Shown: one piece after another, positions 1,401 to 15,511 of the stretch
How positions within the stretch are numbered: position 1 is the stretch's first letter
How the letters are laid out: the number at the start of each line of letters is the position of its first letter
Virus record (IMG/VR): IMGVR_UViG_2778261216_000008
Span: 1-24,777 of that record
Length of the DNA stretch: 24,777 nucleotides
Direction: 5' to 3' (one strand)
DNA from: a virus
Lineage: Duplodnaviria > Heunggongvirae > Uroviricota > Caudoviricetes
Translations under genes and position numbers: made by a program
Notes under the pieces: model-generated
The model's input: only the letters and a program-made list of their open reading frames with translations
Told to the model about the DNA's origin: nothing
Databases searched by the model: none

Positions 1401-1932
1401 AGAGGCTGCTAAGTGCATATCCTACCAACAACCAAGTAGAGCATTCCACTTGGTTGTTGTAGTATTGCTTATGTCTACAGCCTGGTTTATCGCCAATAAG
1501 TACATCATTTTAACATCCATTCCTTGGGGCGTATTAACTATCCTCATCTTACCAATTGCAAGTAGCGCAACCCTGTTTCATAAGTTATCTGAAACCCAAA
1601 AAAACGTTGCTGAGGATTTATCTCGCAATGAACAAAGAAGGTTAACAAGGCTTATTAAAGAAAAAAGCCGGGCAACATTATTCATGCTTACGCTACAAAT
1701 TTCGATAATAATTTTTGTGGCATTGATTAGCCTTGGCAATGAGTCCTCTTTTGTTCAACAGCACATTCATACTATAAGTAAATTCGTTGTTTGTGCTTTG
1801 GTTTTTTCACTATACTCATTAATCCCTGTTTTACTAGGGGTAAAGGAAGTCATTGATTTTGAAGGGTTAATAAAAACACGAAAAACATTAAATAAGCGTA
1901 AAAAATCTGCATTATCCAAGCTTGGGAAGTAA
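1393..1932 (+). CDS. small integral membrane protein (179 aa, about 4 predicted TM segments, basic C-terminal tail)
   Basis: ATG 1393 overlaps the upstream stop (ATGAATAG); hydrophobic stretches LVVVVLLMSTAWFIA, GVLTILILPIASSATLF, LFMLTLQISIIIFVALISL, FVVCALVFSLYSLIPVLLGV. Confidence 0.7.
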   Translation: MNREAAKCISYQQPSRAFHLVVVVLLMSTAWFIANKYIILTSIPWGVLTILILPIASSATLFHKLSETQKNVAEDLSRNEQRRLTRLIKEKSRATLFMLTLQISIIIFVALISLGNESSFVQQHIHTISKFVVCALVFSLYSLIPVLLGVKEVIDFEGLIKTRKTLNKRKKSALSKLGK

Positions 1933-2312: not shown

Positions 2313-3308
2313 TCAGGACAGCACACCAATCGCCAGCGCGCGATCGATAAAACGAAATATCAGCTCCAGTTGGGAACCATACTTCTCTTCAAATGCCACG
2401 GTATCCGCATGCAGTTCGTCATGGTGTTTTCTGCACAAAGGCAACACAAAAAGGTCATGCGCTTTTGTACCCATTCCACCCTGACCATGGCCAATCAGGT
2501 GATGCGGATCGTCGGCTGGCTTACCACAACATGCACACGGCTGCGTCTTAACCCAGCGCGTGTACTTTTCATTAACCCAGCGACGACGTTTGGGGCGTAA
2601 CATAAAAGACTCCGGCGACTCCGGATCCACTTTCAGCGCCAGCACCTTTTTCGCTTTATCCCGGATGATGCTGGTGGCGAGAACCGAAGGCACAAGGTCA
2701 CTTTCCCGGGTAACAGACGGCACAACAGTCTTCGGTAATCTCAGTGCCTTACGGGCTGCACTTTCCGGTAAGGCATCTGCCAGGTCATTACGAACCAGCC
2801 ACCAGCACAGTTCCGGCATTGTCACAACGTGACTGTCATCAAAACCGAGATCCCGGCGCACAACAGACAACACCCAGCGGGCACAGTTATCCGTTGCCAT
2901 TGCTTCCAGCCGTTCCGTGAACTGATCGCGCAGCTGGTTATCGCAGTGCCAGCACAGACGGATTGCGCCCGGCGCGTGCCGCATTGTGGTCATGTTCTCG
3001 CTGTGCCATCCGGAATGAGGCCACTGACAGCCCTTTTCACGAAGTAACCAGCTTTCAAGACATTCCACGCCACCAGCACGACGAATAACTGCCTCATTGC
3101 GGAACACGGCCCGAACGGCAGGATCATCCGCTAACGGTTGTGATGCCGCCGGAACGGCACCACTGGCAAAAGATGAATAGCGTTCCGGCTCAGGCTCCAG
3201 CAGGACACGTCCCTGCATAAACAGGGGCATCAGCTCTGAACCTGGTCTGAACAGTACGATCCCCATTCGCGGGGCAATTTCAGGAGTCAACAATGCTCTC
3301 ACGGTCAC
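2313..3308 (-). CDS. prophage protein with C-terminal Cys/His-rich HNH-like motif (possibly DUF968 family)
   Basis: 331 aa; C-terminus CACCGKPADDPHHLIGHGQGGMGTKAHDLFVLPLCRKHHDELH; GTG start; family assignment from memory only. Confidence 0.55.
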   Translation of the reverse strand: MTVRALLTPEIAPRMGIVLFRPGSELMPLFMQGRVLLEPEPERYSSFASGAVPAASQPLADDPAVRAVFRNEAVIRRAGGVECLESWLLREKGCQWPHSGWHSENMTTMRHAPGAIRLCWHCDNQLRDQFTERLEAMATDNCARWVLSVVRRDLGFDDSHVVTMPELCWWLVRNDLADALPESAARKALRLPKTVVPSVTRESDLVPSVLATSIIRDKAKKVLALKVDPESPESFMLRPKRRRWVNEKYTRWVKTQPCACCGKPADDPHHLIGHGQGGMGTKAHDLFVLPLCRKHHDELHADTVAFEEKYGSQLELIFRFIDRALAIGVLS

Positions 3309-3353: not shown

Positions 3354-3611
3354 TCACGCAGTAAACTCCTTCACCAGAGTTTCAAACTGGCTTACCTTGC
3401 CTTCCAGTTCCGCCACGCAATCCACCAGCTCATCCACCGCCTTTTGTGTGCGGTGTTTTGCCTGCAGCAGATCACGAAGCGCCGGAGTAAGCTGCTTGCG
3501 GAGCGTATCCTTTGCCACGCTCATTTTTTCCATCTGTTCAGCACAACGAAGCATCTCCTGCGCCTGGCGACGAAGTTGTTCCGGTGAAACAGTGGCTGTT
3601 CTGTTGTTCAA
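3354..3611 (-). CDS. hypothetical small protein (85 aa, coiled-coil-like)
   Basis: ATG overlaps the DnaB-like stop (ATGA); no recognisable domain. Confidence 0.5.
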   Translation of the reverse strand: MNNRTATVSPEQLRRQAQEMLRCAEQMEKMSVAKDTLRKQLTPALRDLLQAKHRTQKAVDELVDCVAELEGKVSQFETLVKEFTA

Positions 3612-5008
3612 AATAAACGCTCCGTTTTACTACCCGACATGCGGTTATTGCTGTATCTGCGCGGAGTGCCCGGCGTCATGGGAGTGGAAAGAACCCGGGC
3701 ACTCTCCTGGTCCACAGGCAGAAAATGCCCGTTATGAAAACGCCGGTAAATGGTACCCAGCGTGCCATTACGCTGTTTCGTGATGTTGATTTCAGCTATG
3801 CCTCTCGCCTGTGTCTCCGGGTTGTACACCTCATCCCTGTAAAGCATCAGAATGATGTCTGCATCCGCCTCTATTTCCCCTGAGTTTTTCAGGTCCGAGT
3901 TCATGGGGCGTTTATTGGGTCTGGATTCCACACCGCGGGAGAGCTGGCTCAGAGCAATCAGCGGAAAACCGCCGGATTTTGCCAGGCTTTTTAGTCCCTT
4001 TGAGATTTCCCCCACAGCAAGGTCGTGACGCCCCGTGCTGCGGGTTTTAATCAGGCCGAGGTAATCGACCACCACCAGCGCCGTTTCCGGGTGTTTCATC
4101 CGGTGGTGCCTCGTGGTTGCACATATCTCATCAATGGTCAGGTTTGCCTGGTCCACCATCCAGATATTACGCCCCGTCATTCGTCCCACGCCCTGTGAGA
4201 AACGCGCCCAGTCTTCGTCTTCAAAACGGGCAACAGACTTAAGACGGGATACCGGCATTCCCCCGGCAGCAGACACCATACGTTCACCAATCTGAATGTT
4301 CGCCATCTCCATGGTGAACAGAAGCACGCCATGCCCCTGCTCAGTCACCTTGTCGATGATATCCAGCGCAAGTTCGGTTTTCCCCATCGAAGGACGAGCC
4401 GCAATGAATACCAGGTCGCCTGGCTCCATACCGCCCGTTTTTGCGTCCAGTTCATCAATACCGGTCATCAACGCCCTGGATTTCTCCAGTCCCTGATTGC
4501 GGCATTCAACACGGTCGACCACTTCCGGAAGGACATCATCAATGTGAACCGGCTGAATGACGCCCTTTCCGGTCGACAGTGAGGCCATCATGTTCTGCGC
4601 ATCCTTCAGGGCATCCTCGGCTGCTTCACAGGTATACGCATCACGTAAATTCTGTAATGCTTCAGTCAGTGTTTTTTCTGCATCGCGCAGTGCGGCATTA
4701 CGCCGCAACGCTGCGACATAGTGCTCCAGTGAAGACTTCACCCAGGTTTTGCGTCCGGTGTCGGTAATCACCGGGGCAAGTTCCGGCATCTCATTGCACA
4801 GCAGTACGGGGTCAATGACGCCGGATACACGGGCCTGTCTGCAAATTCCCGCGTAAATATCCCGGTACTGTCGTGCAGAAAAAACGTCCGCCGACAATGT
4901 GGCCAGAATATCCATCACTTCCGGATCAGCCCCACGCAGAAAAAACGCACCGATGACAGCTCCTTCCAGGTCATAATTACGCCACGCCGGATTTGTCGGG
5001 TTTGTCAT
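3608..5008 (-). CDS. DnaB-like replicative DNA helicase
   Basis: Walker A ARPSMGKTELALDI plus DnaB-like C-terminal domain; start MTNPTNPAW overlaps the DnaC-like stop (ATGA). Confidence 0.85.
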   Translation of the reverse strand: MTNPTNPAWRNYDLEGAVIGAFFLRGADPEVMDILATLSADVFSARQYRDIYAGICRQARVSGVIDPVLLCNEMPELAPVITDTGRKTWVKSSLEHYVAALRRNAALRDAEKTLTEALQNLRDAYTCEAAEDALKDAQNMMASLSTGKGVIQPVHIDDVLPEVVDRVECRNQGLEKSRALMTGIDELDAKTGGMEPGDLVFIAARPSMGKTELALDIIDKVTEQGHGVLLFTMEMANIQIGERMVSAAGGMPVSRLKSVARFEDEDWARFSQGVGRMTGRNIWMVDQANLTIDEICATTRHHRMKHPETALVVVDYLGLIKTRSTGRHDLAVGEISKGLKSLAKSGGFPLIALSQLSRGVESRPNKRPMNSDLKNSGEIEADADIILMLYRDEVYNPETQARGIAEINITKQRNGTLGTIYRRFHNGHFLPVDQESARVLSTPMTPGTPRRYSNNRMSGSKTERLF

Positions 5009-5895
5009 GCTGCCACACCTCTGATATGCGCACGGTAGCTTTCCCAACCAAACACCAGGCAGTTACGCCCACCATCAGTAACGCGATCCACAATCCGTTC
5101 ACCAATGGATTCCTTAAGCTGTTCAAACGTCAGGTTGCTGATCAAAATTGTCGGTAAAATGCTTTCGTAACGCGCATTTATGATTTCCTGCAGGATGGTT
5201 ATCTCCGCAGGCGTACCGAACTGCACACCAACCTCATCGATGATAAGCAGATCCAGCGATGCAAAATGATTAATCACTTCATCGTCAGTGCGCTCAGAGT
5301 TGTGGCGCCAGGTATTTTTCACCGCACGGGTAAGCCGCATTACATCCGTGATTTCTATGGTTGCCTGGTGGTGGCGAATAATATTTTTTGCCATTGATAC
5401 AGCCAGGTGATTTTTACCGGTACCACAATTGCCAATCATGACCATGCTGGTGCCTGCAGCGAGACATTTCTTCCAGGAAGCGGCATAGCGCTGACAGGCT
5501 TCAAGGTTTTTCTGTGCGTCAGTATTCACCGCCTGATAATTCTCAAACTCACAGTCCTGGAACCGGCGGGCAATACCGGCCTGATCGAGTAATTCACGAA
5601 CCTTCAGGGCGCGTAATTCGTCATACACGCGGTCCAGCTCCTCACTGAGGCAGGACAGGCAACCGGACACCCGTTTGACAGCTTTCCCCCTTACATCCGG
5701 GCCCGTCAGCACATAGCGCGTGTATTTTCCGTGTTTCCCGCAGGACACCGTCTCAGTGCTTTGCACCCAATGCTCACAGCGCCACGGACGCTTTCCGCCA
5801 CGGACAAATGCCAGCTCCTCTTCCAGGTCTGCCTTGCGGTTAAGTAACTGCGCTTTGTCGTGTTGCATGTGTTGTTTGTTCAGGAAATTAGTCAT
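5005..5895 (-). CDS. DnaC-like (IstB-type AAA+) helicase loader
   Basis: Walker A GNCGTGKNHLA, Walker B LLIIDEVG; start MTNFLNKQ after RBS GGGAGGG. Confidence 0.85.
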   Translation of the reverse strand: MTNFLNKQHMQHDKAQLLNRKADLEEELAFVRGGKRPWRCEHWVQSTETVSCGKHGKYTRYVLTGPDVRGKAVKRVSGCLSCLSEELDRVYDELRALKVRELLDQAGIARRFQDCEFENYQAVNTDAQKNLEACQRYAASWKKCLAAGTSMVMIGNCGTGKNHLAVSMAKNIIRHHQATIEITDVMRLTRAVKNTWRHNSERTDDEVINHFASLDLLIIDEVGVQFGTPAEITILQEIINARYESILPTILISNLTFEQLKESIGERIVDRVTDGGRNCLVFGWESYRAHIRGVAA

Positions 5896-5914: not shown

Positions 5915-6826
5915 TCACCAGTTGAAGTTCGTTGAGCCGTAGTCCTGTTCACTGAATCCCGAGATCGGGAGGCTTTTGCCCCGCCCACCTCCGGGGGCTG
6001 CTGGCTGTTGCCAGGATTCCTCGAAATGACGATCGGGTCCAAAGAACGTCGACGCCTGCTTCACGAACTGGGTACCGGTATTTCCAGAGACACGCACCCA
6101 GGCGGCATAGCGTTTCACACCGTTGAGCATGGTTTCGGGTGTCACACCTTCCCTGATTCGGGCTTTCCAGGCTTTGAAGGCTGCTGACTTGGAATTACCA
6201 CCAGCACGTTTGGGATATTCCTGCCAGGCCTGTTCAAATTCCGGTGAATATTCCTGTCTGGCAGAACGCGCTGGTGCAGACGCGTCAGCGGATGCGCCAA
6301 TATCTTGCGGTTCATGTTTTGAATTTACTGGTGGTTCATGTTTTAAACCTTGTGGATCTGGGGTCAGATTCTGAAGGGTCAAACGCGTATTTTTGCCAGA
6401 ATCTGAAGGGTCAAACACACCTGAACATACAGATTCTGACGGTTCAGATTTTGAAGGTTCAGAATCTGAAGGGTCACGTAATCCTGAAAGTCTGCGCTGC
6501 TGTTTCAGTTCTGCAACCTTATCCCGCTCTGTTCTGGCAAGCAGCTCAAGCCGATCAGCATTCAGATGATAAAGATTGGACGTATTACGGTTACCTTTGC
6601 GGCGTGACTGACGCGTCAGCCAGCCATCAGCCTCCAGTTCGGAGATTGCCGTTCTGACTGTACTTTCTCCCAACCCAAGCTGTCGGCATATGGTTTCAAC
6701 ACCTGGGTAGCACACCCCGTCATCATTCGAATAATCCGCCAAGCGCGCCATAATCATCAGTTTTGCACCTTTGATGCCATATGCTGCACATGCATCCCAG
6801 ACATTACCTAGGATTTTGCTACTCAT
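5915..6826 (-). CDS. replication initiator (lambda O-like) with N-terminal HTH and internal iterons
   Basis: N-terminal HTH-like segment; iteron array inside the coding sequence (Ser/Asp/Pro repeat in the protein); directly upstream of loader and helicase. Confidence 0.7.
   Translation of the reverse strand: MSSKILGNVWDACAAYGIKGAKLMIMARLADYSNDDGVCYPGVETICRQLGLGESTVRTAISELEADGWLTRQSRRKGNRNTSNLYHLNADRLELLARTERDKVAELKQQRRLSGLRDPSDSEPSKSEPSESVCSGVFDPSDSGKNTRLTLQNLTPDPQGLKHEPPVNSKHEPQDIGASADASAPARSARQEYSPEFEQAWQEYPKRAGGNSKSAAFKAWKARIREGVTPETMLNGVKRYAAWVRVSGNTGTQFVKQASTFFGPDRHFEESWQQPAAPGGGRGKSLPISGFSEQDYGSTNFNW
6309..6477. repeat. origin-type iteron array inside the initiator gene
   Basis: GGTTCATGTTTT x2 (6309-6320, 6333-6344); CAGAWTCTGAAGGGTCA x3 (6365-6384, 6397-6416, 6460-6477) plus degenerate copies at 6430-6461. 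Confidence 0.65.
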
Positions 6827-7047
6827 ACGGCACCTCCCAGACGCTTAAACATTTTTCCGGACTGAAACGCCACCAGCGGATAACTCAGGGTATGAGTACG
6901 TCCCTGAACCTGGCAGACAACCTTCTGGCTTTCTGTATTGACCAGGCAAACCCGCAGAACGTGTCCATTGCTGGTGGTGAACCACTGCCCCACACGGGGG
7001 CAATGGTTGTATCGGTGATACAGGAAATTAACGATGTGGCGGATCAT
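6823..7047 (-). CDS. hypothetical small protein (74 aa)
   Basis: ATGA start/stop overlaps on both sides within the operon; no recognisable domain. Confidence 0.45.
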   Translation of the reverse strand: MIRHIVNFLYHRYNHCPRVGQWFTTSNGHVLRVCLVNTESQKVVCQVQGRTHTLSYPLVAFQSGKMFKRLGGAV

Positions 7048-7238
7048 GGACGCACCTCCGCCGTAGTTACGTATTTAACCGGGCTACCTTTCATTGAGAT
7101 GGTTTCACACATCTCTGCCGCTTTCAGTTCTGCCGTTTTTCTGGATTTATAGCGACGGTGCCAGACAGATACATCCGTGCGAACTGATACATCGTTTCTG
7201 TATTCAGTTGTGGAAATAATAATTTCGTAACTAATCAT
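7044..7238 (-). CDS. hypothetical small protein (64 aa)
   Basis: ATG 7238 after RBS GGAGG, overlapping the upstream stop; track ORF 7044..7253 trimmed to this start. Confidence 0.45.
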   Translation of the reverse strand: MISYEIIISTTEYRNDVSVRTDVSVWHRRYKSRKTAELKAAEMCETISMKGSPVKYVTTAEVRP

Positions 7239-7597
7239 GGACGCGCCTCCCACTGATTACGGCGGAAAGCGGTAAGATTCAGGCTGTTCCCTGCCTCATG
7301 GAATGCTTCAATGCAGCTCTCGTAGTACCGCATTGTGCGTAGACTTAACCCAAGCTGAAGCATCATCAGGCCATCAAAGGTGATGTAATAACCACGCAGG
7401 GAGTCACCATAGATGTGATAAGTACCCGGTATGAAATTGCGGGTAAAAAATTCGCGCGAGCAGTTCAGATACTCGATTTTGTCGACGATGTTCTGGTGCA
7501 TGCGCTTGAAATGGCAGGCAACATGCAGGGAGAAAATAACGGCCTTGCCGTTGACGACTTCGATTTTCAGGTATGGGGAAGTTGGGTCTGTAGCCAT
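7235..7597 (-). CDS. Rha-family (Phage_pRha-like) protein, diverged paralogue 2
   Basis: 120 aa from ATG 7597 after conserved GAGGCTGCCATC; GKAVIFSLHVACHFKRMHQNIVDKIEYL and YYITFDGLMMLQLGL parallel the Rha core of the upstream paralogue. Confidence 0.55.
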   Translation of the reverse strand: MATDPTSPYLKIEVVNGKAVIFSLHVACHFKRMHQNIVDKIEYLNCSREFFTRNFIPGTYHIYGDSLRGYYITFDGLMMLQLGLSLRTMRYYESCIEAFHEAGNSLNLTAFRRNQWEARP

Positions 7598-7890
7598 GAT
7601 GGCAGCCTCCGTATGCAATGGATAACTTCCACCACCGGAAACGCCAATTTCGCTGGTGGTGAACTGAGCAGGGTTGGCGTAACCGGCGCATACGGAAACC
7701 GGCGCACCTTTCGGTGCCCCCACCCAGCCCACCATAATTTGGGTATAGCTGAGTTGTAGCAACAAAAAAGACGCTAACGCGCCAATTGTCGCCGTATGCA
7801 ATTCTAGGACGCCAATCCCGGCACCCGTTTTATAAGGTGCCTGAACAGTGTAACGTCCCGGAATGGCAGAATCAATATTCAGGTAGCGGA
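7598..7890 (-). promoter_or_regulatory. structured leader 2 upstream of Rha paralogue 2 (candidate cis-regulatory RNA/attenuator)
   Basis: Shares a 42-nt near-identical 5' block, CCCAAATTATGGTGGG and the RBS block with leader 1; hairpin GGGGCACC-GAAA-GGTGCGCC (7701-7720); GC stem + T6 at about 7764-7783. Confidence 0.5.
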
Positions 7891-8442
7891 TCATAGACGC
7901 ACCTCCTTGTCAGAACCATTCAGCCTGGAATCAACAAGTGCAGCACCAAAAACAGCATCACCTACACGGTCGTACAGTTTGCTGGCCAGCGGAGATTCAA
8001 CAGCCTTAAGCATTGGATAAAGCTGGCTTGTCCAGATTTGATGGATTTCACGCAAATGCAGGTATACGCCTCTGGCGTTTCGTGCGACAGCTGACATATC
8101 AGACGCATCGGCACCTGATAAACTCTTCTCCATCTGGTTAAAGGCATTGATGTATGCCTCTTTGAACCTGGCTGCACGTTTACCAGTGAAGCCCATGGCA
8201 AGAAACGCAAAACCGTCGCGGGTGATTTGATAGCAAGGTAGTTTGCGGCCTGTGCAATCAGTGTAATCACTCACCGAAAAATTGCGGGCAGTGAGTGATG
8301 CGGAACATTCAAGCGTGCGGATCTTTTTCAGTACATCGTCATGACGTTTGGAGAAGAAGTTGGCAACAGCCAGGGATGAAGTAACAGCCTGACCATCAAC
8401 GATGGCAATTTCAGGTTGAGTGAGGGTTGGGATCGTAGCCAT
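7891..8442 (-). CDS. Rha-family (Phage_pRha) regulatory protein, paralogue 1
   Basis: 183 aa from ATG 8442 after RBS AAGAGG; GQAVTSSLAVANFFSKRHDDVLKKIRTLE...YQITRDGFAFLAMGFTGKRAARFKEAYINAFNQME matches the Rha domain pattern. Confidence 0.7.
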   Translation of the reverse strand: MATIPTLTQPEIAIVDGQAVTSSLAVANFFSKRHDDVLKKIRTLECSASLTARNFSVSDYTDCTGRKLPCYQITRDGFAFLAMGFTGKRAARFKEAYINAFNQMEKSLSGADASDMSAVARNARGVYLHLREIHQIWTSQLYPMLKAVESPLASKLYDRVGDAVFGAALVDSRLNGSDKEVRL

Positions 8443-8738
8443 GATGGCAGCCTCTTTGGTGATTTTTAATAACTCACCACCAAGGCTTTCCACGACCTTA
8501 TTGGTGGTGAGACGTACAGGGGTGGAAATACCGGTCACCAAAGAACCCGGCCCAACCGAAGTTGGCCCTGCACGCCCCACCATAATTTGGGCGTAATGCT
8601 GCTCATGACACAAAAAAACCGCAAGAGCGCGGCTGTGCGCTTTGGTGAATTCCGGGTTTCCACGCCCGGCACCCGCTTTATAAGGTGCCTGAACAGTGTA
8701 ACGTCCCGAAATTGAGGAATCAATATTTTGGAGAACAA
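8443..8738 (-). promoter_or_regulatory. structured leader 1 upstream of Rha paralogue 1 (candidate cis-regulatory RNA/attenuator)
   Basis: Hairpin GGCACC-N10-GGTGCC; hairpin GGGCCAAC-UUCG-GUUGGGCC (8549-8568); 11-bp stem CTCACCACCAA/TTGGTGGTGAG (8473-8511); GC stem + T7 (8612-8633). Confidence 0.5.
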
Positions 8739-9563
8739 TCATGCAGCACCCGCCAGTTCTTTATCGTGGGTGAATTCGCCATTCCAGTTTCTCTTCATGG
8801 GTAATGCACCTCTAAGATACTGGCGATAAATCCAGACCGCCCCTTTCTGGAGAAGAACTGGTGTATACGAATAAAACCCTTCTTCATAACCTGAATCGAT
8901 ATAGTGGTGACGTTCGGTCAGATACAGATCTCGGGCATATGCCTTTACACGCCATGCGGGGCTTCGCGATTCAGGACGCTCGTCATAAAGCCAGTTGTGA
9001 GCCTCCAGAAATGCTGTGATACGCTGAACATTTACTCCATTAAGTTGCTTGCAGAACTGAACCGGTGTCATGCCAGGCTGGAATAAATTTTCCAGATGTT
9101 CGATGTATTGGGCCTGACGATGAACGTAACTAATTGCTCTGTTTTTAGCCTCATATTCATCCGCCCAGGCACGGGCAGCAGCAGCCGGATCGCTAAAATC
9201 TGGTAGGGATGTCATTGTGGTAAGACTGTAATTCCCCGTTTTACGAATTGACGGAATTACCTCCGATGTAATCCACCGTTTAAAACGTCTTGCCTGTTTT
9301 TTTCGACTTTTGATAATCAGCGCATAGAGCCCGGATTCATTGACCAGCAAAGGCTTACGTCCCGAACCTAAGTAATCCTTATATTCGGTTTTATCTTCAT
9401 CATCGATGGACTGAAGGGAGATAGCAGTATTTGTCAGCCCCAGCGCGTTACATATATCCACGGCAAAAAACCATGGTGTTGAATCAATGACCACACTACG
9501 AACTGATGACAACAATTCACCAGTGCTTGATTTAAAATCGAAAACTTTGATATTGTTTTTCAC
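8739..9563 (-). CDS. Bro-N domain antirepressor-like protein
   Basis: GTG 9563 after RBS GGAGA; N-terminus KVFDFKSSTGELLSSVRSVVIDSTPWFFAVDICNALGL is Bro-N-like; track ORF trimmed at the upstream stop. Confidence 0.65.
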   Translation of the reverse strand: MKNNIKVFDFKSSTGELLSSVRSVVIDSTPWFFAVDICNALGLTNTAISLQSIDDEDKTEYKDYLGSGRKPLLVNESGLYALIIKSRKKQARRFKRWITSEVIPSIRKTGNYSLTTMTSLPDFSDPAAAARAWADEYEAKNRAISYVHRQAQYIEHLENLFQPGMTPVQFCKQLNGVNVQRITAFLEAHNWLYDERPESRSPAWRVKAYARDLYLTERHHYIDSGYEEGFYSYTPVLLQKGAVWIYRQYLRGALPMKRNWNGEFTHDKELAGAA

Positions 9564-9615
9564 GTAATATCTCCGACGATAAACCCGACTGGCCGGTTTT
9601 CTCTGCCGGCCTTTC

Positions 9616-10323
9616 TTATTTCTGCCAACCAATAACCTGAAATACCCCCATTTTCGGGTAATACCAGCAAGTCCCTCGCGGTTCTGCTTCCTCCATAACC
9701 CGATAAAAAGCAGCCATAAACGGTTCCACAGCAACAATTGCGCGACGAGACAACAATCCATCCGGCCTCATGAACTCATGGGGGTCGGTAGGGATCTGAT
9801 ATGCGTTCACCAGATTGCGGCATTTCGCATCTGACATACCCGTTTTCGCCGCCAGCTGACGATAGCCTGCATAACCATCGCGTATGGCGCCTCTTTTGAT
9901 TTGTTCGACAGTTTCAGTAACGTGGGTGACTTTCTCTTCCACCTGCTCAAGACGTCTTTGTTGGCGAACAGCTTCAAGCGCCATTGCAGCAACCATTTCG
10001 ATCTGGCTCATTGGTTTGCGGATTTGTTCTTCCAGTTCGCGCCAGCGGTCTACCAGACGGGCGGTGAATTCAGGGCAAAGCTGTGCGACAACAATGATGC
10101 TGTCGCGTTTGCCTCGTTCACCTTCGAATACATACGCGCTAGAAAATCGGCGAGGGCCAAGTGATTGTTTATTCTCAATTTCCACAGACTGTGGAAATTG
10201 GATGATTCCCTTTTTAGCCAGTGTTTCAATAGTTCTCTTAACACTATCTGGTCTGCTTCCCACCAGCTCAGCTATCTCAATACTGGTCATGGATGCTTTA
10301 TCGGTAAAAATTGTTGTATTCAC
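9616..10323 (-). CDS. Rha-family N-terminal domain regulatory protein (in the cII position)
   Basis: 235 aa; TSIEIAELVGSRPDSVKRTIETLAKKGII...SIIVVAQLCPEFTARLVDRWRELE is Rha-like; ATG overlaps the cro stop (ATGA). Confidence 0.6.
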   Translation of the reverse strand: MNTTIFTDKASMTSIEIAELVGSRPDSVKRTIETLAKKGIIQFPQSVEIENKQSLGPRRFSSAYVFEGERGKRDSIIVVAQLCPEFTARLVDRWRELEEQIRKPMSQIEMVAAMALEAVRQQRRLEQVEEKVTHVTETVEQIKRGAIRDGYAGYRQLAAKTGMSDAKCRNLVNAYQIPTDPHEFMRPDGLLSRRAIVAVEPFMAAFYRVMEEAEPRGTCWYYPKMGVFQVIGWQK

Positions 10324-10583
10324 TGTTTATCTCCTTCGCACACTCCATCTTCTGTGTGCGCTAAACTTGGGTGTGGGAAAAGCTCCGGTAGATCAGGACG
10401 AAATTCATACGCCTGGACTTTCCCATCGACCGCCTTAACCAGAGACGGAACAAATTCAGGAGAAATTTTTTTCTTCCCATTCAGCCAGTCGCAAATTGTT
10501 GACTGCGCGCGACCACAACGCCTAGCCAGAGCAATCTGGCTTCCCGCAATATCTACAGCCTTGGCTATACCTTCATTTTTCAT
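10320..10583 (-). CDS. cro: Cro-like HTH repressor
   Basis: 87 aa from ATG 10583 after RBS GGAGG; HTH QIALARRCGRAQSTICDWLNGKK; divergent from the CI-like gene. Confidence 0.7.
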   Translation of the reverse strand: MKNEGIAKAVDIAGSQIALARRCGRAQSTICDWLNGKKKISPEFVPSLVKAVDGKVQAYEFRPDLPELFPHPSLAHTEDGVCEGDKQ

Positions 10584-10706
10584 ATCGACCTCCAACCTGA
10601 TTTCATTCACTATAGCGATTGATTAAAGCGATTGCAATGTACGGAAAAGCGGTTTGTGTATATATCGCTAAGGCGATACACTAAAAGGGCAGAAAAAGGA
10701 GGACTT
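10584..10706. promoter_or_regulatory. divergent immunity-switch region (pR-like cro promoter, operator-like dyads, cI upstream region)
   Basis: Minus strand TTGCAA-17 bp-TATAGT (plus 10609-10637); palindrome TATCGC-TAAG-GCGATA at 10663-10678; AGCGATTG direct repeat; motif TATAGCGATTGA at 10611-10622. Confidence 0.55.
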
Positions 10707-11411
10707 ATGAGCTTTTCAGACAGGCTACAGTTAGCTATGACTATCCGCGGATACTCGCAGGGAAAACTGGCCAGAGAGGTTGGCATGGCTCAATCGAGCG
10801 TAAATAAACTGGTTAATGGTGCCACAGGCTCCAGGAAAGTTGTGGAGATAGCCAATACCCTGAACGTGCGCCCCGAGTGGCTATCGTACGGTGTTGGTCC
10901 TATGACCCCAGAAGAAAGCACATCCTGCAATCCGACACCACAGGAATCATATTCCCCGCTGGAAAATGATAAGGATATTTTTCGTGTGGAAGTCCTGGAT
11001 ATCGCTGCCAGCGCGGGACCAGGAACATTCCTTGTTTCAGATTTTGCAGAAACGGTCCATGCTATAGAATTTTCACATGACGCCGCAAGACGTCTGTTCT
11101 GTAGCAGGCCAGCAAATATCATAAAGATGATAACAGTTGATGGCGACAGCATGGCTCCTACTCTGTGTGCAGGAGATCAGGTGTTTGTCGACGTATCCGT
11201 CAGAAATTTTGAAACTGACGGTATCTATATTTTTATTTTTGGGCACACCTTCCATATCAAACGCCTGCAAATGCAAGGGATGCAACTTGCTGTTATATCA
11301 GACAATCCGGCCTACAAGGAATGGTTTATAAGTGAATCAGCTGAAGAACATCTATTCATAATGGGGAAAGTTCTCATTCATCAGTCAATCCAGTATAACA
11401 GGGTCGGATAA
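10707..11411 (+). CDS. cI: CI-like repressor (HTH_XRE + S24 LexA-type peptidase domain)
   Basis: 234 aa after RBS AAGGAGG; HTH GYSQGKLAREVGMAQSSVNKLVNG; S24 motifs VDGDSMAPTL and FHIKRL; candidate Ala-Gly cleavage site in SAGPG. Confidence 0.85.
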   Translation: MSFSDRLQLAMTIRGYSQGKLAREVGMAQSSVNKLVNGATGSRKVVEIANTLNVRPEWLSYGVGPMTPEESTSCNPTPQESYSPLENDKDIFRVEVLDIAASAGPGTFLVSDFAETVHAIEFSHDAARRLFCSRPANIIKMITVDGDSMAPTLCAGDQVFVDVSVRNFETDGIYIFIFGHTFHIKRLQMQGMQLAVISDNPAYKEWFISESAEEHLFIMGKVLIHQSIQYNRVG

Positions 11412-11520: not shown

Positions 11521-11568
11521 ATAGCTATAGCGATTGACATAACCAAACGCTTTAGCTATTGTAAAATT
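11521..11568 (+). promoter_or_regulatory. candidate pL-like early-left promoter with operator dyad
   Basis: TTGACA at 11534-11539 with TATTGT/TAAAAT downstream; dyad ATAGCTATAGCG (11521-11532) / CGCTTTAGCTAT (11548-11559); shares TATAGCGATTGA with the cro-cI region. Confidence 0.4.
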
Positions 11569-11587: not shown

Positions 11588-12259
11588 ATGAAGCATGCAG
11601 TTAAGGTGATGGATGAAATTGCAGCACAAATACAAGAAAGCGGCTCGCTGCTTGGAATGATCTATTCCTACATGTCAGAAAACGGAGCAGAAAGTGAGAG
11701 GGTTTATAATGCAATCAGATGCCTGATGCGTTCCCTGCAAAAAACAGAAGAAACTGCATCAATTTTTGCAGAAAAACTATGTGAGGCAAAAGCTATGGTT
11801 TCGCATGGTCACTTTTTTGGAAAAATCCGTGCCCAACGTGAAGCCTGCGGTTTGACGACCACCGAACTAGCCAGACTACTCGATCTTGACGAAGAGATTA
11901 TTCTGCAATGGGAGAGTGGAGAGTTCGAGCCAACCATCAGCATGCTTATCCCCCTGGCAAACGTCCTGGGATGCGATCCGCTTTCTCTGCTGAGTGAAAA
12001 CAATACCGCAGTACCTGTGCGCGTAAATGCTCCTGAAGCCCATATGGAAAGTATTGGCACACGCATCAAAAGCGCACGTAAAAAACTGGGATTAACCGAA
12101 TCTGATCTTGCCCGCATGATTAATACCTATAGCGACCCCATAAATGACTGGGAATGCGGCATCCATGAAGTTCCTGCTGATCAGATAGTACCACTGGCCA
12201 GTGCTCTTAATTGTGACCTGATGTGGTTGTTAACAGGCAAATCAGAAGCAAAGGAGTAA
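11588..12259 (+). CDS. protein with two tandem XRE-type HTH domains (223 aa), first gene of the early-left operon
   Basis: Strong RBS AGGAGG; HTH 1 GLTTTELARLLDLDEEIILQWESGEFEPT, HTH 2 GLTESDLARMINTYSDPINDWECG. Confidence 0.7.
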   Translation: MKHAVKVMDEIAAQIQESGSLLGMIYSYMSENGAESERVYNAIRCLMRSLQKTEETASIFAEKLCEAKAMVSHGHFFGKIRAQREACGLTTTELARLLDLDEEIILQWESGEFEPTISMLIPLANVLGCDPLSLLSENNTAVPVRVNAPEAHMESIGTRIKSARKKLGLTESDLARMINTYSDPINDWECGIHEVPADQIVPLASALNCDLMWLLTGKSEAKE

Positions 12260-13607: not shown

Positions 13608-13796
13608 ATGAGACTGTATTTCACAATAGTAATTTTACTGGCAATTATCGCATGCATTTACGGATTACTCGTTCCGTTCCTTATATCCATGAAGGATACG
13701 ATAGCAGTTACTTCTGGCTTTGCACTGGCGTTTCTGACCCCGCCCTGCATTTATGCCATTTACAAGGGTCTTTCTTTCACTAAGGATAAAAAATGA
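13608..13796 (+). CDS. small membrane protein (62 aa, 2 predicted TM segments)
   Basis: Hydrophobic YFTIVILLAIIACIYGLLVPFLI and SGFALAFLTPPCIYAIY; stop overlaps the SPFH ATG (ATGA); weak RBS. Confidence 0.5.
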   Translation: MRLYFTIVILLAIIACIYGLLVPFLISMKDTIAVTSGFALAFLTPPCIYAIYKGLSFTKDKK

Positions 13797-14620
13797 AAAA
13801 AATTATTTTTGCTTTAGCCATTGTTCTGCCGATCATTGGCCTTGTCGGCTGCGATCGCGTTGAACCCGGTAATGTTGGCATCAAAGTAAATAAACTGGGC
13901 GACGATAAAGGCGTCGGTGAGGTGGTCGGTGTTGGTCGCTACTGGACTGGCTGGAATACTGAAGTTTACATCTTCCCAACCTTCAAACAAATGAAGACCT
14001 ACGATGAGCCGTTCAGCTTCCAGATGAGTGACGGCACAACCATCGGCTATCACATCGGTGTTGCCTACAAAGTTGATCCATCCAAAGTTACCACGGTGTT
14101 TCAGACCTACCGCAAAGGCGTGGATGACATTACCGCCACTGACCTGCGCCAGAAGATCGCCGACGCACTCAATCGACTGGCCAGCAAAATGACCACCGAC
14201 AAATTTATCGACGGCGGCAAGTCTGAACTACTGGATGCCGCACTTAAAGACATTCAGGAAGAGATGACCCCCATCGGCGTTCAGGTAATGAGCCTCTCTT
14301 ATGTAGGTAAACCGGAATACCCGCCAACCGTTATCGACAGCATTAACGCCAAAGTCACGGCAAACCAGAAAACCCTGCAGCGCGAACAGGAAGTCAAGCA
14401 ACGTGAAGCGGAGGCCAACATGCTGCGTGCAGAAGCTGCCGGACAGGCTGATGCCATTCGAACAAAAGCCCTGGCAGAAGCCGATGCCATTCGTTTACGC
14501 GGCGAAGCTCTGCGCCAGAACCCTGGCGTCATGGAGCTGGAAGCCATCAACAAGTGGAACGGTACACTGCCGCAATACATGACCAGTGGTGCCAATACAC
14601 CATTTATCCAGATTAAATAA
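13793..14620 (+). CDS. SPFH/Band-7 (prohibitin-like) domain lipoprotein
   Basis: Signal peptide with lipobox LVGC; SPFH-type core; Ala/Glu/Arg-rich coiled-coil tail (QREAEANMLRAEAAGQADAIRTKALAEADAIRLRGEA). Confidence 0.8.
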   Translation: MKKIIFALAIVLPIIGLVGCDRVEPGNVGIKVNKLGDDKGVGEVVGVGRYWTGWNTEVYIFPTFKQMKTYDEPFSFQMSDGTTIGYHIGVAYKVDPSKVTTVFQTYRKGVDDITATDLRQKIADALNRLASKMTTDKFIDGGKSELLDAALKDIQEEMTPIGVQVMSLSYVGKPEYPPTVIDSINAKVTANQKTLQREQEVKQREAEANMLRAEAAGQADAIRTKALAEADAIRLRGEALRQNPGVMELEAINKWNGTLPQYMTSGANTPFIQIK

Positions 14621-15063: not shown

Positions 15064-15180
15064 ATGTTCGCTCTGATTAATCAGGGACAACTGTATACCG
15101 ACAGTGCCGGTTACCCGGTAAAAATTGTTCGCTGCATAAACAACACCGTGTTGTACAGAAGATGTGAAGCGAATGTTTGA
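15064..15180 (+). CDS. possible small protein (38 aa)
   Basis: ATG 15064 after RBS AGGAGA within track ORF 14941..15180; MFALINQGQLYTDSAGYPVKIVRCINNTVLYRRCEANV. Confidence 0.25.
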   Translation: MFALINQGQLYTDSAGYPVKIVRCINNTVLYRRCEANV

Positions 15181-15223
15181 AGTGTGGTGCCACTGCCGTG
15201 GATGAAAGTTTTATGAGGTTGGC

Positions 15224-15478
15224 ATGCAGACAATCATCTATCAGATAACCCCCAGCAAATGGTGTACGGAGAGAGTCCTCATTGCATCAACAGGGCTAAA
15301 GCCTGGCACCATCGAGCGAGCCAGAAGAAAGTCATGGATGCAGGGAAAAGAATACCGCCATTACGCTGTAGAAGGTGATCCGGGGCATTACAGTGAATGC
15401 CTGTACAACATCGAAGAAATTATGCGATGGATCGAAAACCAGAAACAACCAGGTGCCAAAAATGCAAGTTCCGGTTAA
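15224..15478 (+). CDS. xis: excisionase-like protein
   Basis: 84 aa directly upstream of int; KWCTERVLIASTGLKPGTIERARRKSWMQGKEYRH resembles the excisionase-like family of P22/Stx-type phages. Confidence 0.65.
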   Translation: MQTIIYQITPSKWCTERVLIASTGLKPGTIERARRKSWMQGKEYRHYAVEGDPGHYSECLYNIEEIMRWIENQKQPGAKNASSG

Positions 15479-15511
15479 CCTGTTAATGCTCCTGGACGTC
15501 TGGGAGGTTTT

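What the first reader, a model, noticed from the sequence alone, without database searches (positions are those of the whole stretch)
7235..10323. Four antirepressor-family genes in the cII position; no cII/cIII/N-like genes recognised
Between cro and the replication genes are a Rha-family gene, a Bro-N gene and two tandem Rha paralogues, chained by ATGA overlaps. I recognise nothing resembling cII, and the early-left operon has no N- or cIII-like gene. The lysis-lysogeny circuitry may therefore differ from the lambda paradigm. The Rha2 paralogue is much more diverged than its leader.
Basis: partly seen in the sequence, partly recalled or inferred. Interest (0 to 1): 0.45.

Follow-up and report, generated by a model that had tools for sequence, protein, structure and literature searches.

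The report
Two RNA-gated antirepressor cassettes beside cro
The four "antirepressor" genes are real, but the two conserved "leaders" are pairs of small regulatory RNA genes (IsrK plus C4) of the known phage P1 / Gifsy-1 kind. They are present here as two mutually non-cross-reacting copies inside the early operon of an E. coli prophage.

Summary
The window is the E. coli 89-3156 chromosome. It holds a phiP27-like lambdoid prophage integrated at yecE, with its early-right operon on the minus strand.

Four Rha/Bro-N genes do lie between cro and the replication genes. No cII, cIII or N homologue is detectable by sequence.

Each ~300-nt "leader" of the two distal Rha genes is an RNA module:
- a promoter-like site;
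- IsrK sRNA with a terminator (Rfam 65 and 55 bits);
- C4 antisense RNA (84 and 81 bits);
- a target overlapping the Shine-Dalgarno of the Rha gene.

The two exposed C4 elements pair with matching sites in the cassette's own IsrK and own leader, and poorly with the other cassette's sites. Across 59 related cassettes in 12 specificity classes these pairings covary (97-99% paired, 0 of 500 shuffles as high). This is the P1 immI a1b1/c4/a2b2 logic and the Gifsy-1 isrK-orf45-anrP locus, duplicated with different specificities.

The annotated long ORFs ("ash family protein") run through the RNA genes. That stretch shows no codon-position signature, yet the frame is never interrupted (0 versus 33 stop columns), and the long ORFs of this window start at ATGA junctions. 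That may let ribosomes on early-operon transcripts pass through the cassette; this is hypothesis only.

Verdict: a known kind in a variant architecture, of moderate interest.

The parts
10320..10583 (-). cro-like first gene of the early-right operon (YdaS/HTH). A promoter-like site TTGCAA-17-TATAGT lies at 10637-10609.
   Evidence: Pfam YdaS_toxin 57 bits, phrog_35; promoter scan; RefSeq annotation
9616..10323 (-). Rha1: Rha-like winged-HTH protein (235 aa). GTG start overlaps the cro stop (GTGA). No RNA module upstream.
   Evidence: Phage_pRha 24.6 bits (below cut-off 29.9), phrog_63 'anti-repressor Ant' 3e-48
8739..9563 (-). Bro-N domain protein (274 aa), GTG start, 52 nt downstream of Rha1. 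No RNA module upstream.
   Evidence: Bro-N 74.9 bits, phrog_130 6.5e-59
8695..8723 (-). Predicted PisrK-A: -35 TTGATT (8723-8718), 17-nt spacer, -10 TACACT (8700-8695), start at G8688.
   Evidence: Read from the sequence. 8/12 consensus matches, below the scan threshold. Most conserved leader segment between A and B (87%). Rfam isrK position 1 falls at 8688, and in Gifsy-1 that position fits the mapped start (PMC4825925).
8612..8688 (-). IsrK-A sRNA (the a1b1 element): a1 GTGGAAA 8663-8657, b1 TCACCAAAG 8648-8640, intrinsic terminator plus U-run 8634-8612.
   Evidence: Rfam RF01394 65.3 bits (cut-off 50); terminator scan; complementarity
8500..8587 (-). C4-A antisense RNA: b' loop TCTTTGGTGA 8544-8535, a' TTTCCAC 8528-8522. 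Its 5' AUG (8583) is in frame with Rha.
   Evidence: Rfam RF01695 83.6 bits (cut-off 45); fold
8443..8499 (-). a2b2 target leader A: a2 GTGGAAA 8493-8487, b2 TCACCAAAGA 8462-8453, overlapping SD GAGG 8454-8451.
7891..8442 (-). RhaA coding body (183 aa) from ATG 8442. The annotated long ORF 7891-8742 (283 aa) adds 100 codons that are the RNA module.
   Evidence: Phage_pRha 105.5 bits; PHROG profiles match only from profile position 101 or 144 onward; codon-position test
7847..7875 (-). Predicted PisrK-B: -35 TTGATT 7875-7870, 17-nt spacer, -10 TACACT 7852-7847, start at G7840.
   Evidence: As for cassette A
7764..7840 (-). IsrK-B sRNA: a1 TTGGCGT 7815-7809, b1 GCATACGG 7799-7792, terminator 7783-7764.
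   Evidence: Rfam RF01394 54.9 bits
7652..7739 (-). C4-B antisense RNA: b' CCGTATGC 7695-7688, a' ACGCCAA 7680-7674.
   Evidence: Rfam RF01695 80.7 bits
7598..7651 (-). a2b2 target leader B: a2 TTGGCGT 7647-7641, b2 GCATACGGA 7616-7608, overlapping SD GGAGG 7610-7606.
7235..7597 (-). RhaB coding body (120 aa, Rha domain only) from ATG 7597. The annotated long ORF 7235-7894 ('ash family protein', 219 aa) starts at an ATGA junction with a strong SD (AAGGAGGT).
   Evidence: Phage_pRha 28.6 bits (cut-off 29.9), phrog_995 1.4e-53; 37% identical to RhaA
6823..7238 (-). Two small ORFs of unknown function (64 and 74 aa) that link the cassettes to the replication genes through ATGA junctions.
   Evidence: phrog_7046 and phrog_1153, both of unknown function; junction motif
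10707..11411 (+). cI-like repressor (HTH_3 plus Peptidase_S24), divergent from cro. Context for the switch.
   Evidence: Pfam and PHROG; RefSeq annotation

Best explanation
WHAT IT IS
Region 7235-10323 (minus strand) is the cro-proximal part of the early-right operon of a phiP27-like lambdoid prophage. It encodes four Rha/Bro-N DNA-binding regulators. The first two (Rha1, Bro-N) are plain operon genes. The last two are each gated by a self-contained RNA switch of the P1 immI / Gifsy-1 isrK type.

ANATOMY OF EACH SWITCH (shown by sequence and comparison)
1. A conserved promoter-like site.
2. IsrK: a ~77-nt terminated sRNA carrying sites a1 and b1.
3. C4: an ~88-nt structured antisense RNA exposing a' (junction) and b' (loop).
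4. A leader carrying a2 and b2, with b2 overlapping the Shine-Dalgarno of the Rha gene.

HOW IT MOST LIKELY WORKS (inferred from P1/P7 and Gifsy-1)
- In the lysogen, transcripts that start at PisrK mostly stop at the IsrK terminator.
- Read-through transcripts yield C4, which pairs with a2/b2 and blocks Rha translation. By analogy with P1, this may also promote Rho-dependent termination downstream.
- IsrK is a mimic of the target. When it is abundant it pairs with C4 (or with the C4 segment of the long transcript) and frees the ribosome-binding site, so Rha is made.
- The two cassettes have different a/b sequences, so they are independently addressable (hetero-immune, as P1 and P7 are).
- The Rha proteins are presumed to be transcription regulators or antirepressors acting on a repressor of this or a co-resident prophage. 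That step is not shown.
For: - Rfam gathering-level hits: C4 83.6 and 80.7 bits (cut-off 45); isrK 65.3 and 54.9 bits (cut-off 50).
- Cognate complementarity at fixed positions: b' pairs 9-10 nt with its own IsrK and its own leader, and 6 nt or fewer with the other cassette's. a' pairs 7 nt with its own sites.
- 59 unique related cassettes from viral contigs fall into 12 (a',b') classes, each with matching a1/a2 and b1/b2.
- Formal pair counts for IsrK(a1b1)-C4(a'b'): 98.9% of cells paired, 12 of 16 pairs changed on both sides, covariation 0.668 against 0.166 in shuffles (0/500), and at most 51% paired when slid.
- Formal pair counts for C4 b'-leader b2: 97.3% paired, 7 of 11 pairs changed on both sides, covariation 0.754 against 0.215 (0/500).
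- The same isrK-then-C4 order occurs in Gifsy-1 upstream of anrP, and in SfV, cdtI, P88, N15 and a Yersinia phage. P7 has c4-a1b1, then c4, then icd, then ant1.
- In Gifsy-1, Rfam's c4-a1b1 model overlaps isrK.
- Experiments in PMC4825925 show that the isrK promoter drives anrP transcription without translation, and that IsrK supplied in trans activates translation about 140-fold by pairing with the 'orf45' segment. That segment is the C4 hit.
- The leader has no coding signature (entropy 0.53/0.55/0.55 by codon position). The Rha body does (0.53/0.32/0.81).
Against: - No expression data exist for this prophage.
- The promoter is only 8/12 to consensus and was not picked up by the scan.
- The prophage may be defective (xis frameshifted).
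- The cargo proteins are not homologous to the proven antirepressors: AnrP carries an ORF6N domain (BLASTP E = 0.76 against RhaA). P1 Ant was not compared with them here. Their target is therefore unknown.
- The published P1 model (C4 represses in trans) and the Gifsy-1 model (IsrK activates by opening a cis structure and an upstream ORF) differ in emphasis. Sequence alone cannot say which dominates here.
- The gene frame stays open through the RNA genes and has a strong upstream start, so the region may also be translated.
Confidence: 0.8

Rival explanations
1. Protein-only reading, as in RefSeq and by the first reader. The two distal genes are 283-aa and 219-aa 'Ash-Rha' proteins whose N-terminal ~100 residues form a conserved protein domain (Pfam Phage_ASH). 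The leader is conserved because of that domain.
For: - Phage_ASH hits above its cut-off (59.8 and 56.8 bits against 26).
- PGAP calls the long ORFs.
- The frame is open in 59 of 59 unique cassettes.
- Starts sit at ATGA junctions, and the start at 7894 has a strong SD.
Against: - Substitutions in the leader are spread evenly over codon positions, unlike in the Rha body.
- The variable residues are exactly the covarying RNA sites.
- Two Rfam models pass their curated thresholds.
- In Gifsy-1 the homologous stretch is not fused to the downstream gene, and its nucleotide sequence, not its amino-acid sequence, is conserved (PMC4825925).
- Stand-alone relatives (P7, N15, the Yersinia phage) have stops in all three frames.
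Confidence: 0.08
2. Inert relics. The cassettes are decaying remnants in a defective prophage. RhaB is a truncated pseudogene-like paralogue and nothing is regulated any more.
For: - xis is frameshifted and a DUF4222 gene is truncated.
- RhaB lacks the C-terminal region of RhaA and falls below Pfam's cut-off.
- Only 3 of 5,426 complete E. coli genomes carry this exact arrangement.
Against: - All three complementary site sets are intact in both cassettes.
- Both RNA pairs score like those of functional phages.
- The short RhaB form is conserved in the viable phage phiP27 as L16, also 660 nt, and matches phrog_995 at 1.4e-53.
- All ORFs of the operon are intact.
Confidence: 0.08
3. Activation-only model, as published for Gifsy-1. 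The C4-like segment acts only in cis, as part of an inhibitory fold of the read-through mRNA, and as an upstream ORF (the orf45 equivalent, here fused in frame to Rha). IsrK in trans opens it. No free C4 repressor RNA is made.
For: - PMC4825925 reports alternative structures A and B, 30S toeprints and compensatory mutations.
- The C4-internal AUG is in frame with the Rha ATG in 59 of 59 cassettes, at 138 or 141 nt.
Against: - The same paper detects a processed short RNA from this segment (STnc1160, 'orf45'').
- The C4 fold is conserved at Rfam scores around 80 bits.
- b' pairs with b2 across the SD with strong covariation. The activation-only model does not need that pairing; the P1 trans-repression model does.
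Confidence: 0.2

Closest known systems
Phage P1/P7 immI operon (a1b1, c4 antisense RNA, a2b2, icd, ant1/ant2; Citron & Schuster 1990, cited in PMC2864571 and PMC12197685)
   Same: - The order target mimic, then C4 RNA, then a target overlapping the RBS of the first downstream ORF.
- Two recognition elements (a, b).
- Specificity differences between relatives give hetero-immunity.
- Rfam C4 matches both the window and P7.
   Different: - P1's operon stands alone with its own C1 operator. Here two cassettes sit inside the early-right operon of a lambdoid phage.
- The upstream element is a terminated sRNA (the isrK model; the c4-a1b1 model scores only 22.6 bits here).
- The cargo is a Rha-domain protein, not Icd plus Ant.
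- An open frame runs through the RNAs here, whereas P7 has stops in all three frames.
Salmonella Gifsy-1 isrK-orf45-anrP-isrJ locus (Hershko-Shalev et al. 2016, PMC4825925)
   Same: - Directly homologous RNA module: an alignment of cassettes A and B with the Gifsy-1 and phiP27 modules has 74% mean column identity.
- Same a/b logic.
- isrK then C4 Rfam hits in the same order.
- IsrK terminator read-through produces the mRNA.
   Different: - Gifsy-1 has a single cassette, located after the Q gene.
- orf45 ends at an AUGA overlap with anrP, instead of being fused in frame.
- The cargo AnrP is an ORF6N protein unrelated to Rha.
- The paper does not mention phage P1 (a term search for 'phage P1' found nothing) and treats the C4 segment as an ORF.
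phiP27 (Stx2e phage) genes L14-L15-L16, and the cro-proximal regions of SfV, cdtI, mEp460 and Stx phages
   Same: - Same operon layout of Rha, then Bro-N, then an 'ash'/Rha ORF, then replication genes.
- 92% nt identity to phiP27.
- The same embedded isrK plus C4 pair inside a long ORF.
   Different: - phiP27, SfV and cdtI carry one cassette; this prophage carries two. Tandem pairs also occur in viral contigs L034, L043 and L076.
- The window's cassette B has different a'/b' alleles from phiP27's, although the surrounding tract is about 92% identical overall.
N15 anti-immunity region and P4 CI RNA (from my own knowledge: Ravin et al. 1999 and Deho's work on P4; not read here)
   Same: Small processed RNAs of the C4 clan control antirepressor or early operons by pairing with repeated sites in the same transcript. 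N15 shows isrK plus C4 Rfam hits.
   Different: These are stand-alone loci that act mainly by premature transcription termination. N15 has stops in all three frames.
Lambda cII/cIII/N circuitry
   Same: Position only: the genes occupy the slot between cro and the replication genes.
   Different: - No sequence similarity to CII, CIII or N.
- No detectable N.
- A Q-family antiterminator is present (1954-2295, PF06530 155 bits).

Membership tests
Rfam RF01695 C4 antisense RNA | Covariance-model score at or above the gathering threshold (45 bits) over the full model | tested here: met
   83.6 bits (8500-8587) and 80.7 bits (7652-7739), model positions 1-87 of 87
Rfam RF01394 isrK | Covariance-model score at or above the gathering threshold (50 bits), ending in a terminator | tested here: met
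   65.3 and 54.9 bits, model positions 1-77 of 77; terminator-like hairpins plus U-runs at 8634-8617 and 7783-7770
Rfam RF03163 c4-a1b1 | Score at or above 46.7 bits | tested here: not met
   22.6 bits, E = 0.018, at 8649-8701 only. Gifsy-1 (48.1 bits) and P7 (55.5 bits) pass.
P1-immI-type antisense switch | The C4 RNA exposes two elements (a', b') that are complementary both to an upstream pair (a1, b1) and to a downstream pair (a2, b2) in the same transcript | tested here: met
   Covariation: 98.9% and 97.3% of cells paired, 0/500 shuffles as high. a2 was tested only by a position-independent search, because MAFFT put it out of register.
P1-immI-type antisense switch | The downstream target overlaps the ribosome-binding site of the first regulated ORF | tested here: met
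   b2 8462-8453 overlaps SD GAGG 8454-8451. b2 7616-7608 overlaps GGAGG 7610-7606. Each ATG lies 8 nt downstream of its SD.
P1-immI-type antisense switch | C4 is processed from the operon transcript and represses in trans; IsrK/a1b1 counteracts it | not testable with these tools
   Inferred from P1/P7 and from the Gifsy-1 experiments (PMC4825925, PMC12197685)
P1-immI-type antisense switch | The regulated protein is an antirepressor that inactivates the prophage repressor | not tested
   The cargo is a Rha-domain protein. It shows no similarity to AnrP (E = 0.76). P1 Ant was not compared.
Pfam PF09669 Phage_pRha | Score at or above 29.9 bits | tested here: met
   Met for RhaA (105.5 bits). Not met for RhaB (28.6 bits) or Rha1 (24.6 bits), which are supported only by PHROG profiles.
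Pfam PF02498 Bro-N | Score at or above 25.6 bits | tested here: met
   74.9 bits for 8739-9563
Pfam PF10554 Phage_ASH ('ash family protein') | A protein domain, meaning sequence conserved at the amino-acid level | tested here: not met
   The HMM scores 59.8 and 56.8 bits. However, the stretch shows no codon-position bias (0.525/0.55/0.547 against 0.529/0.322/0.805 in the Rha body) and coincides with the two RNA genes.
Lambda CII / CIII / N | Detectable homology to PF05269-type CII, to CIII, or to N | tested here: not met
   No Pfam hit at E of 0.01 or below on any early gene. phmmer --max best E = 0.36. PHROG 4836 'CII-like regulator' hits the two-HTH protein 11588-12259, but that is a label only.

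The most novel reading that the evidence does not exclude
The cassette may be dual-mode.

What is observed: an amino-acid-unconstrained but never-interrupted reading frame runs through the sRNA promoter, the IsrK terminator, C4 and the a2b2 target, and into Rha. In this window it starts at an ATGA junction with the upstream gene.

Proposed consequence:
- Early-right (pR) transcripts would be translated straight through. Ribosomes would prevent the terminator hairpin, C4 folding and pairing, and Rho action. The cassette would then be transparent in lytic growth, the replication genes downstream would be reached without an N protein, and an extended Ash-Rha protein would be made.
- Transcripts from PisrK start downstream of that ATG, are untranslated, and are terminated or repressed in the lysogen.

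Two such orthogonal gates in tandem would then give two independently triggerable antirepressor outputs.
Probability: 0.3. Interest if true: 0.65.

Novelty: new variant of a known kind. Interest (0 to 1): 0.42.

Why it matters
- Annotation. Thousands of enterobacterial prophage genes are named "ash family protein", or are over-long "Rha family" proteins, where the 5' third is actually two regulatory RNA genes. The Pfam Phage_ASH model and PHROGs 995 and 821 appear to carry this artefact.
- Literature. Two threads that reviews still list separately are the same module: IsrK corresponds to the a1b1 element and "orf45" to C4. The threads are P1 c4 repression and Gifsy-1 IsrK activation.
- Biology. 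Many Shiga-toxin and related lambdoid phages place such RNA-gated regulators where lambda has cII. Orthogonal specificity classes (12 seen here) imply a combinatorial immunity or cross-talk code among co-resident prophages, which bears on prophage induction and toxin release.
- Open idea. If the translation pass-through hypothesis holds, it would be a compact way to make a terminator and an antisense repressor active only in the lysogen.

Tried and rejected
- RNAduplex on full-length RNAs was uninformative, because it ignores intramolecular structure. I replaced it with tests restricted to the loops and junctions.
- The consensus promoter scan did not report PisrK (8/12 matches). The promoter therefore rests on conservation and on homology to the mapped Gifsy-1 start.
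- I expected the Rha genes to be AnrP homologues. They are not; AnrP is an ORF6N protein.
- Global nucleotide alignment of the two coding bodies gave inflated identities. I replaced it with a codon alignment.
- MAFFT placed the a2 site out of register between classes, so a2 covariation was not scored with the count of structure pairs. Only the position-independent search covers it.
- I tested whether the open frame separates embedded cassettes from stand-alone ones. It does so only partly. cdtI and SfV are open; P7, N15 and the Yersinia phage are closed; but stand-alone Gifsy-1 and P88 also have one open frame.
- PADLOC and Pfam gave nothing for the low-GC cargo genes.
- ARAGORN found no tRNA or tmRNA.
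- I did not use the large protein-homology, structure-prediction or fold-search tools. The question was settled at the RNA and profile level.

Full report
ORIGIN AND LAYOUT

The window is identical to E. coli 89-3156 chromosome NZ_CP027366.1, positions 2154231-2179007. It holds the regulatory half of a lambdoid prophage whose integrase (15511-16797) abuts yecE/DUF72. The closest described phage is phiP27, at 92% nt identity over the matching part.

The early-right operon runs on the minus strand, in this order:
- cro-like 10320-10583
- Rha1 9616-10323
- Bro-N 8739-9563
- ORF 7891-8742
- ORF 7235-7894
- two small ORFs (7044-7238, 6823-7047)
- O-like 5915-6826
- DnaC-like 5005-5895
- DnaB-like 3608-5008
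- orf85
- DUF968/HNH 2313-3302
- Q-family antiterminator 1954-2295

A cI-like HTH plus S24 repressor (10707-11411) is divergent from cro. The early-left genes follow it on the plus strand.

CHECKING THE OBSERVATION

The four Rha/Bro-N genes are there. Bro-N (74.9 bits) and the Rha domain of 7891-8442 (105.5 bits) pass Pfam's thresholds. Rha1 (24.6 bits) and the Rha domain of 7235-7597 (28.6 bits) fall just below 29.9, but they match PHROG antirepressor/Rha families at 3e-48 and 1.4e-53.

ATGA overlaps are real at four junctions. Three of them share the motif GGAGGTGCGTCYATGA, against 0.24 matches expected by chance. Two details need correcting: cro/Rha1 overlap by GTGA, and Rha1 and Bro-N are separated by 52 nt.

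No cII, cIII or N was found. There is no Pfam hit on any early gene, and no PHROG labelled cIII or N. phmmer --max with lambda CII/CIII/N, P22 C1/c3/gp24 and the Gifsy-1 CII analogue, run against all 346 stop-to-stop frames of the prophage part, gave nothing better than E = 0.36. One caveat: the first early-left gene (11588-12259, two HTH_3 domains) hits PHROG 4836, which is labelled "CII-like regulator". That is a label, not a demonstrated function.

The remark that the leader is better conserved than the Rha2 body also holds: 71-78% nt identity for the leader, against 51% nt and 39% aa for the body.

WHAT THE LEADERS ARE

Rfam at curated thresholds finds, on the minus strand, isrK at 8612-8688 and 7764-7840 (65.3 and 54.9 bits) and C4 antisense RNA at 8500-8587 and 7652-7739 (83.6 and 80.7 bits). 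Each "leader" therefore has four parts:
1. a conserved promoter-like site (TTGATT, 17 nt, TACACT);
2. IsrK, with an intrinsic terminator;
3. C4;
4. a ~55-nt leader ending in GAGG, 8 nt, then ATGGCTAC.

Reading the sequence shows the P1 logic. The C4 hairpin loop (b') and the single-stranded junction (a') are complementary to sites at fixed positions in the cassette's own IsrK (a1 at +26, b1 at +41/42) and in its own leader (a2, b2). Site b2 covers the Shine-Dalgarno.

| Site | Cassette A | Cassette B |
|---|---|---|
| a | GTGGAAA / TTTCCAC | TTGGCGT / ACGCCAA |
| b | TCACCAAAG(A) / TCTTTGGTGA | GCATACGG(A) / (T)CCGTATGC |

For b', cognate matches are 8-10 nt and cross-cassette matches 6 nt or fewer. 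For a', each cognate match is 7 nt. One cross-match also reaches 7 nt: the a' region of C4-A pairs with GGTGGAA in leader B, at a different position from a2.

COMPARATIVE SUPPORT

A 24-nt pattern covering the promoter and the start of IsrK retrieved 120 viral contigs. These gave 62 unique cassettes, 59 of them with the full anatomy, in 12 (a',b') classes. There are four a' alleles and at least nine b' alleles, and they reassort. Every class has matching a1/a2 and b1/b2 sites.

Pair counts on the 59-sequence alignment:

| Pairing | Cells paired | Pairs changed on both sides | Covariation (observed vs shuffled) | Shuffles as high | Paired when slid |
|---|---|---|---|---|---|
| IsrK(a1b1)-C4(a'b') | 98.9% | 12 of 16 | 0.668 vs 0.166 | 0/500 | at most 51% |
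| C4 b'-leader b2 | 97.3% | 7 of 11 | 0.754 vs 0.215 | 0/500 | at most 46.5% |

Because the sequences are related, the shuffle counts are not probabilities. The slid controls and the number of distinct pair types make the case.

RELATION TO KNOWN SYSTEMS

- P7 has c4-a1b1, then c4, then icd, then ant1/2.
- Gifsy-1 has isrK (34240-34316) and a C4 hit (34131-34214) directly upstream of STM2616/anrP. Rfam's c4-a1b1 model overlaps its isrK. The C4 hit occupies the segment that Hershko-Shalev et al. named orf45. Their first AUG at +107 is the AUG in the C4 5' stem.
- They showed that PisrK drives anrP transcription without translation, and that IsrK in trans activates translation about 140-fold by pairing with that segment. 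They also showed that a processed RNA (STnc1160) derives from it, and that its nucleotide sequence, not its amino-acid sequence, is conserved (PMC4825925).
- A term search of that paper found no mention of phage P1. A 2025 review lists IsrK and c4 as separate systems (PMC12197685).
- The same isrK plus C4 pair occurs in SfV, cdtI, P88, N15 and a Yersinia phage.
- The cargo differs between relatives: AnrP is an ORF6N protein with no similarity to RhaA. Among the 59 cassettes some carry a non-Rha cargo behind the same first ~8 codons. The RNA module is thus a portable gate.

TANDEM AND EMBEDDED ARRANGEMENT

phiP27, SfV and cdtI have one cassette; this prophage has two. Cassette A is 97-98% identical to those of mEp460 and Stx2 phages. 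Cassette B lies in the tract that matches phiP27 at 92% overall. The pair therefore arose by module insertion, not by local duplication.

Tandem pairs also occur in contigs L034, L043 and L076. In all four cases, this window included, the two cassettes differ in b'. Only 3 of 5,426 complete E. coli genomes have this exact 3.7-kb arrangement.

THE OPEN FRAME

RefSeq annotates 7891-8742 and 7235-7894 as single ORFs ("Rha family phage regulatory protein" and "ash family protein"). Pfam Phage_ASH matches the leader translation.

The leader has no coding signature. Entropy by codon position is 0.525/0.55/0.547, against 0.529/0.322/0.805 in the Rha body. The Ash "domain" therefore looks like a translation of RNA genes.

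Yet the gene frame is uninterrupted in all 59 unique leaders, while the other two frames carry 15 and 18 distinct stop columns. A crude estimate is (2/3)^33 = 1.5e-6. Further points:
- The C4-internal AUG is always in frame with the Rha ATG.
- The first in-frame ATG is followed by A, giving ATGA, in 9 of 10 sequence contexts. In this window those ATGA junctions do overlap the upstream gene's stop; elsewhere the upstream ORF was not checked.
- The start at 7894 has a strong SD, AAGGAGGT.
- Stand-alone modules in P7, N15 and the Yersinia phage have stops in all frames, but Gifsy-1 and P88 keep one frame open.

I read this as selection for ribosome transit rather than for a protein sequence, possibly to carry pR transcription through the IsrK terminators to the replication genes in a phage without N. 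This is a hypothesis only (probability about 0.3).

MECHANISM

Shown: the anatomy, RNA family membership, and the three-way complementarity with covariation and orthogonality.

Inferred from P1 and Gifsy-1:
- C4 occludes the Rha ribosome-binding site in the lysogen.
- IsrK acts as a decoy or activator.
- The IsrK terminator limits read-through.

Not shown: promoter activity, RNA processing, and what the Rha proteins do. The cI-like repressor has an S24 domain. On my own reading of its sequence it also has an Ala-Gly site and GDSM and Lys motifs. SOS induction probably does not need these regulators, so they may act on other prophages' repressors or on commitment.

VERDICT

The real content is a known RNA-controlled antirepressor module in a variant architecture that is tandem, orthogonal, embedded in an operon and read through by an open frame. 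Interest is moderate.

Noticed in passing
L123 (Gifsy-1, NC_010392) 34131-34329, minus strand: The published 'orf45' of the Gifsy-1 isrK-orf45-anrP locus coincides with a gathering-level Rfam C4 hit, and Rfam's c4-a1b1 model overlaps isrK. The IsrK system and P1 c4 immunity are therefore the same module. A term search of the 2016 paper found no mention of phage P1, and a 2025 review lists the two separately.
   Followed up: yes
window 7598-7894 and 8443-8742 (minus strand); Pfam PF10554, PHROGs 995 and 821, NCBI name 'ash family protein': These protein-family models and names appear to be built on translations of the IsrK/C4 RNA genes. There is no codon-position signature, and the PHROG profiles match the real Rha body only from profile position 101 or 144 onward.
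   Followed up: partly
L003, L005, L006 and others; L127 (cdtI) 1177-1500; L128 (SfV) 1177-1500: In most Stx-, SfV- and cdtI-type phages the open frame extends a further ~100 codons upstream ('MNSLTANNRLSQQ...'), again starting at an ATGA junction. The translation has an odd composition. Whether this is coding sequence or another non-coding element was not examined.
   Followed up: no
L054 8733-9100: Two identical IsrK copies lie 238 nt apart with no C4 within 140 nt downstream of either. They may be orphan decoy sRNAs.
   Followed up: no
window 9591-9621 (+), with a promoter-like site at 9290-9317 (+): A strong terminator-like hairpin plus T-run lies on the strand opposite the operon, in the Rha1/Bro-N gap, about 275 nt downstream of a plus-strand promoter-like site. 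It could end an antisense RNA against the 5' part of Bro-N, in the manner of lambda oop.
   Followed up: no
window 7891-7906, 7235-7250, 7044-7059 (minus strand): The boundary motif GGAGGTGCGTCYATGA (SD plus overlapping stop and start) recurs at three gene junctions, against 0.24 expected. These are likely module-exchange or translational-coupling joints. Cassette A was probably inserted at such a joint.
   Followed up: partly
window 10610-10619 and 11525-11534 (minus strand); 10663-10678: An exact 10-mer, ATCGCTATAG, is shared by the pR-like and pL-like promoter regions. A perfect palindrome, TATCGCTAAGGCGATA, lies between cI and cro. These are candidate operators for the cI-like repressor.
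   Followed up: partly
window 369-1932 (+): Two low-GC genes (38-41% GC; 343 aa, and 179 aa apparently membrane) lie on the opposite strand just beyond the Q gene, where Stx phages carry cargo. They have no Pfam or PADLOC match.
   Followed up: partly
window 15064-15477 (+): The xis gene is annotated as frameshifted and a DUF4222 gene as truncated, so the prophage may be excision-defective.
   Followed up: no
window 13608-14620 (+): The early-left operon carries an SPFH/Band-7 lipoprotein gene preceded by a 62-aa membrane ORF. This is probably a lysogenic-conversion or exclusion function. No PADLOC hit.
   Followed up: partly
NZ_CP027366.1 ('places in record: 2'): The same genome has a second place matching part of the query. 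This may be another prophage with a related cassette, which would matter for cross-talk between specificity classes.
   Followed up: no
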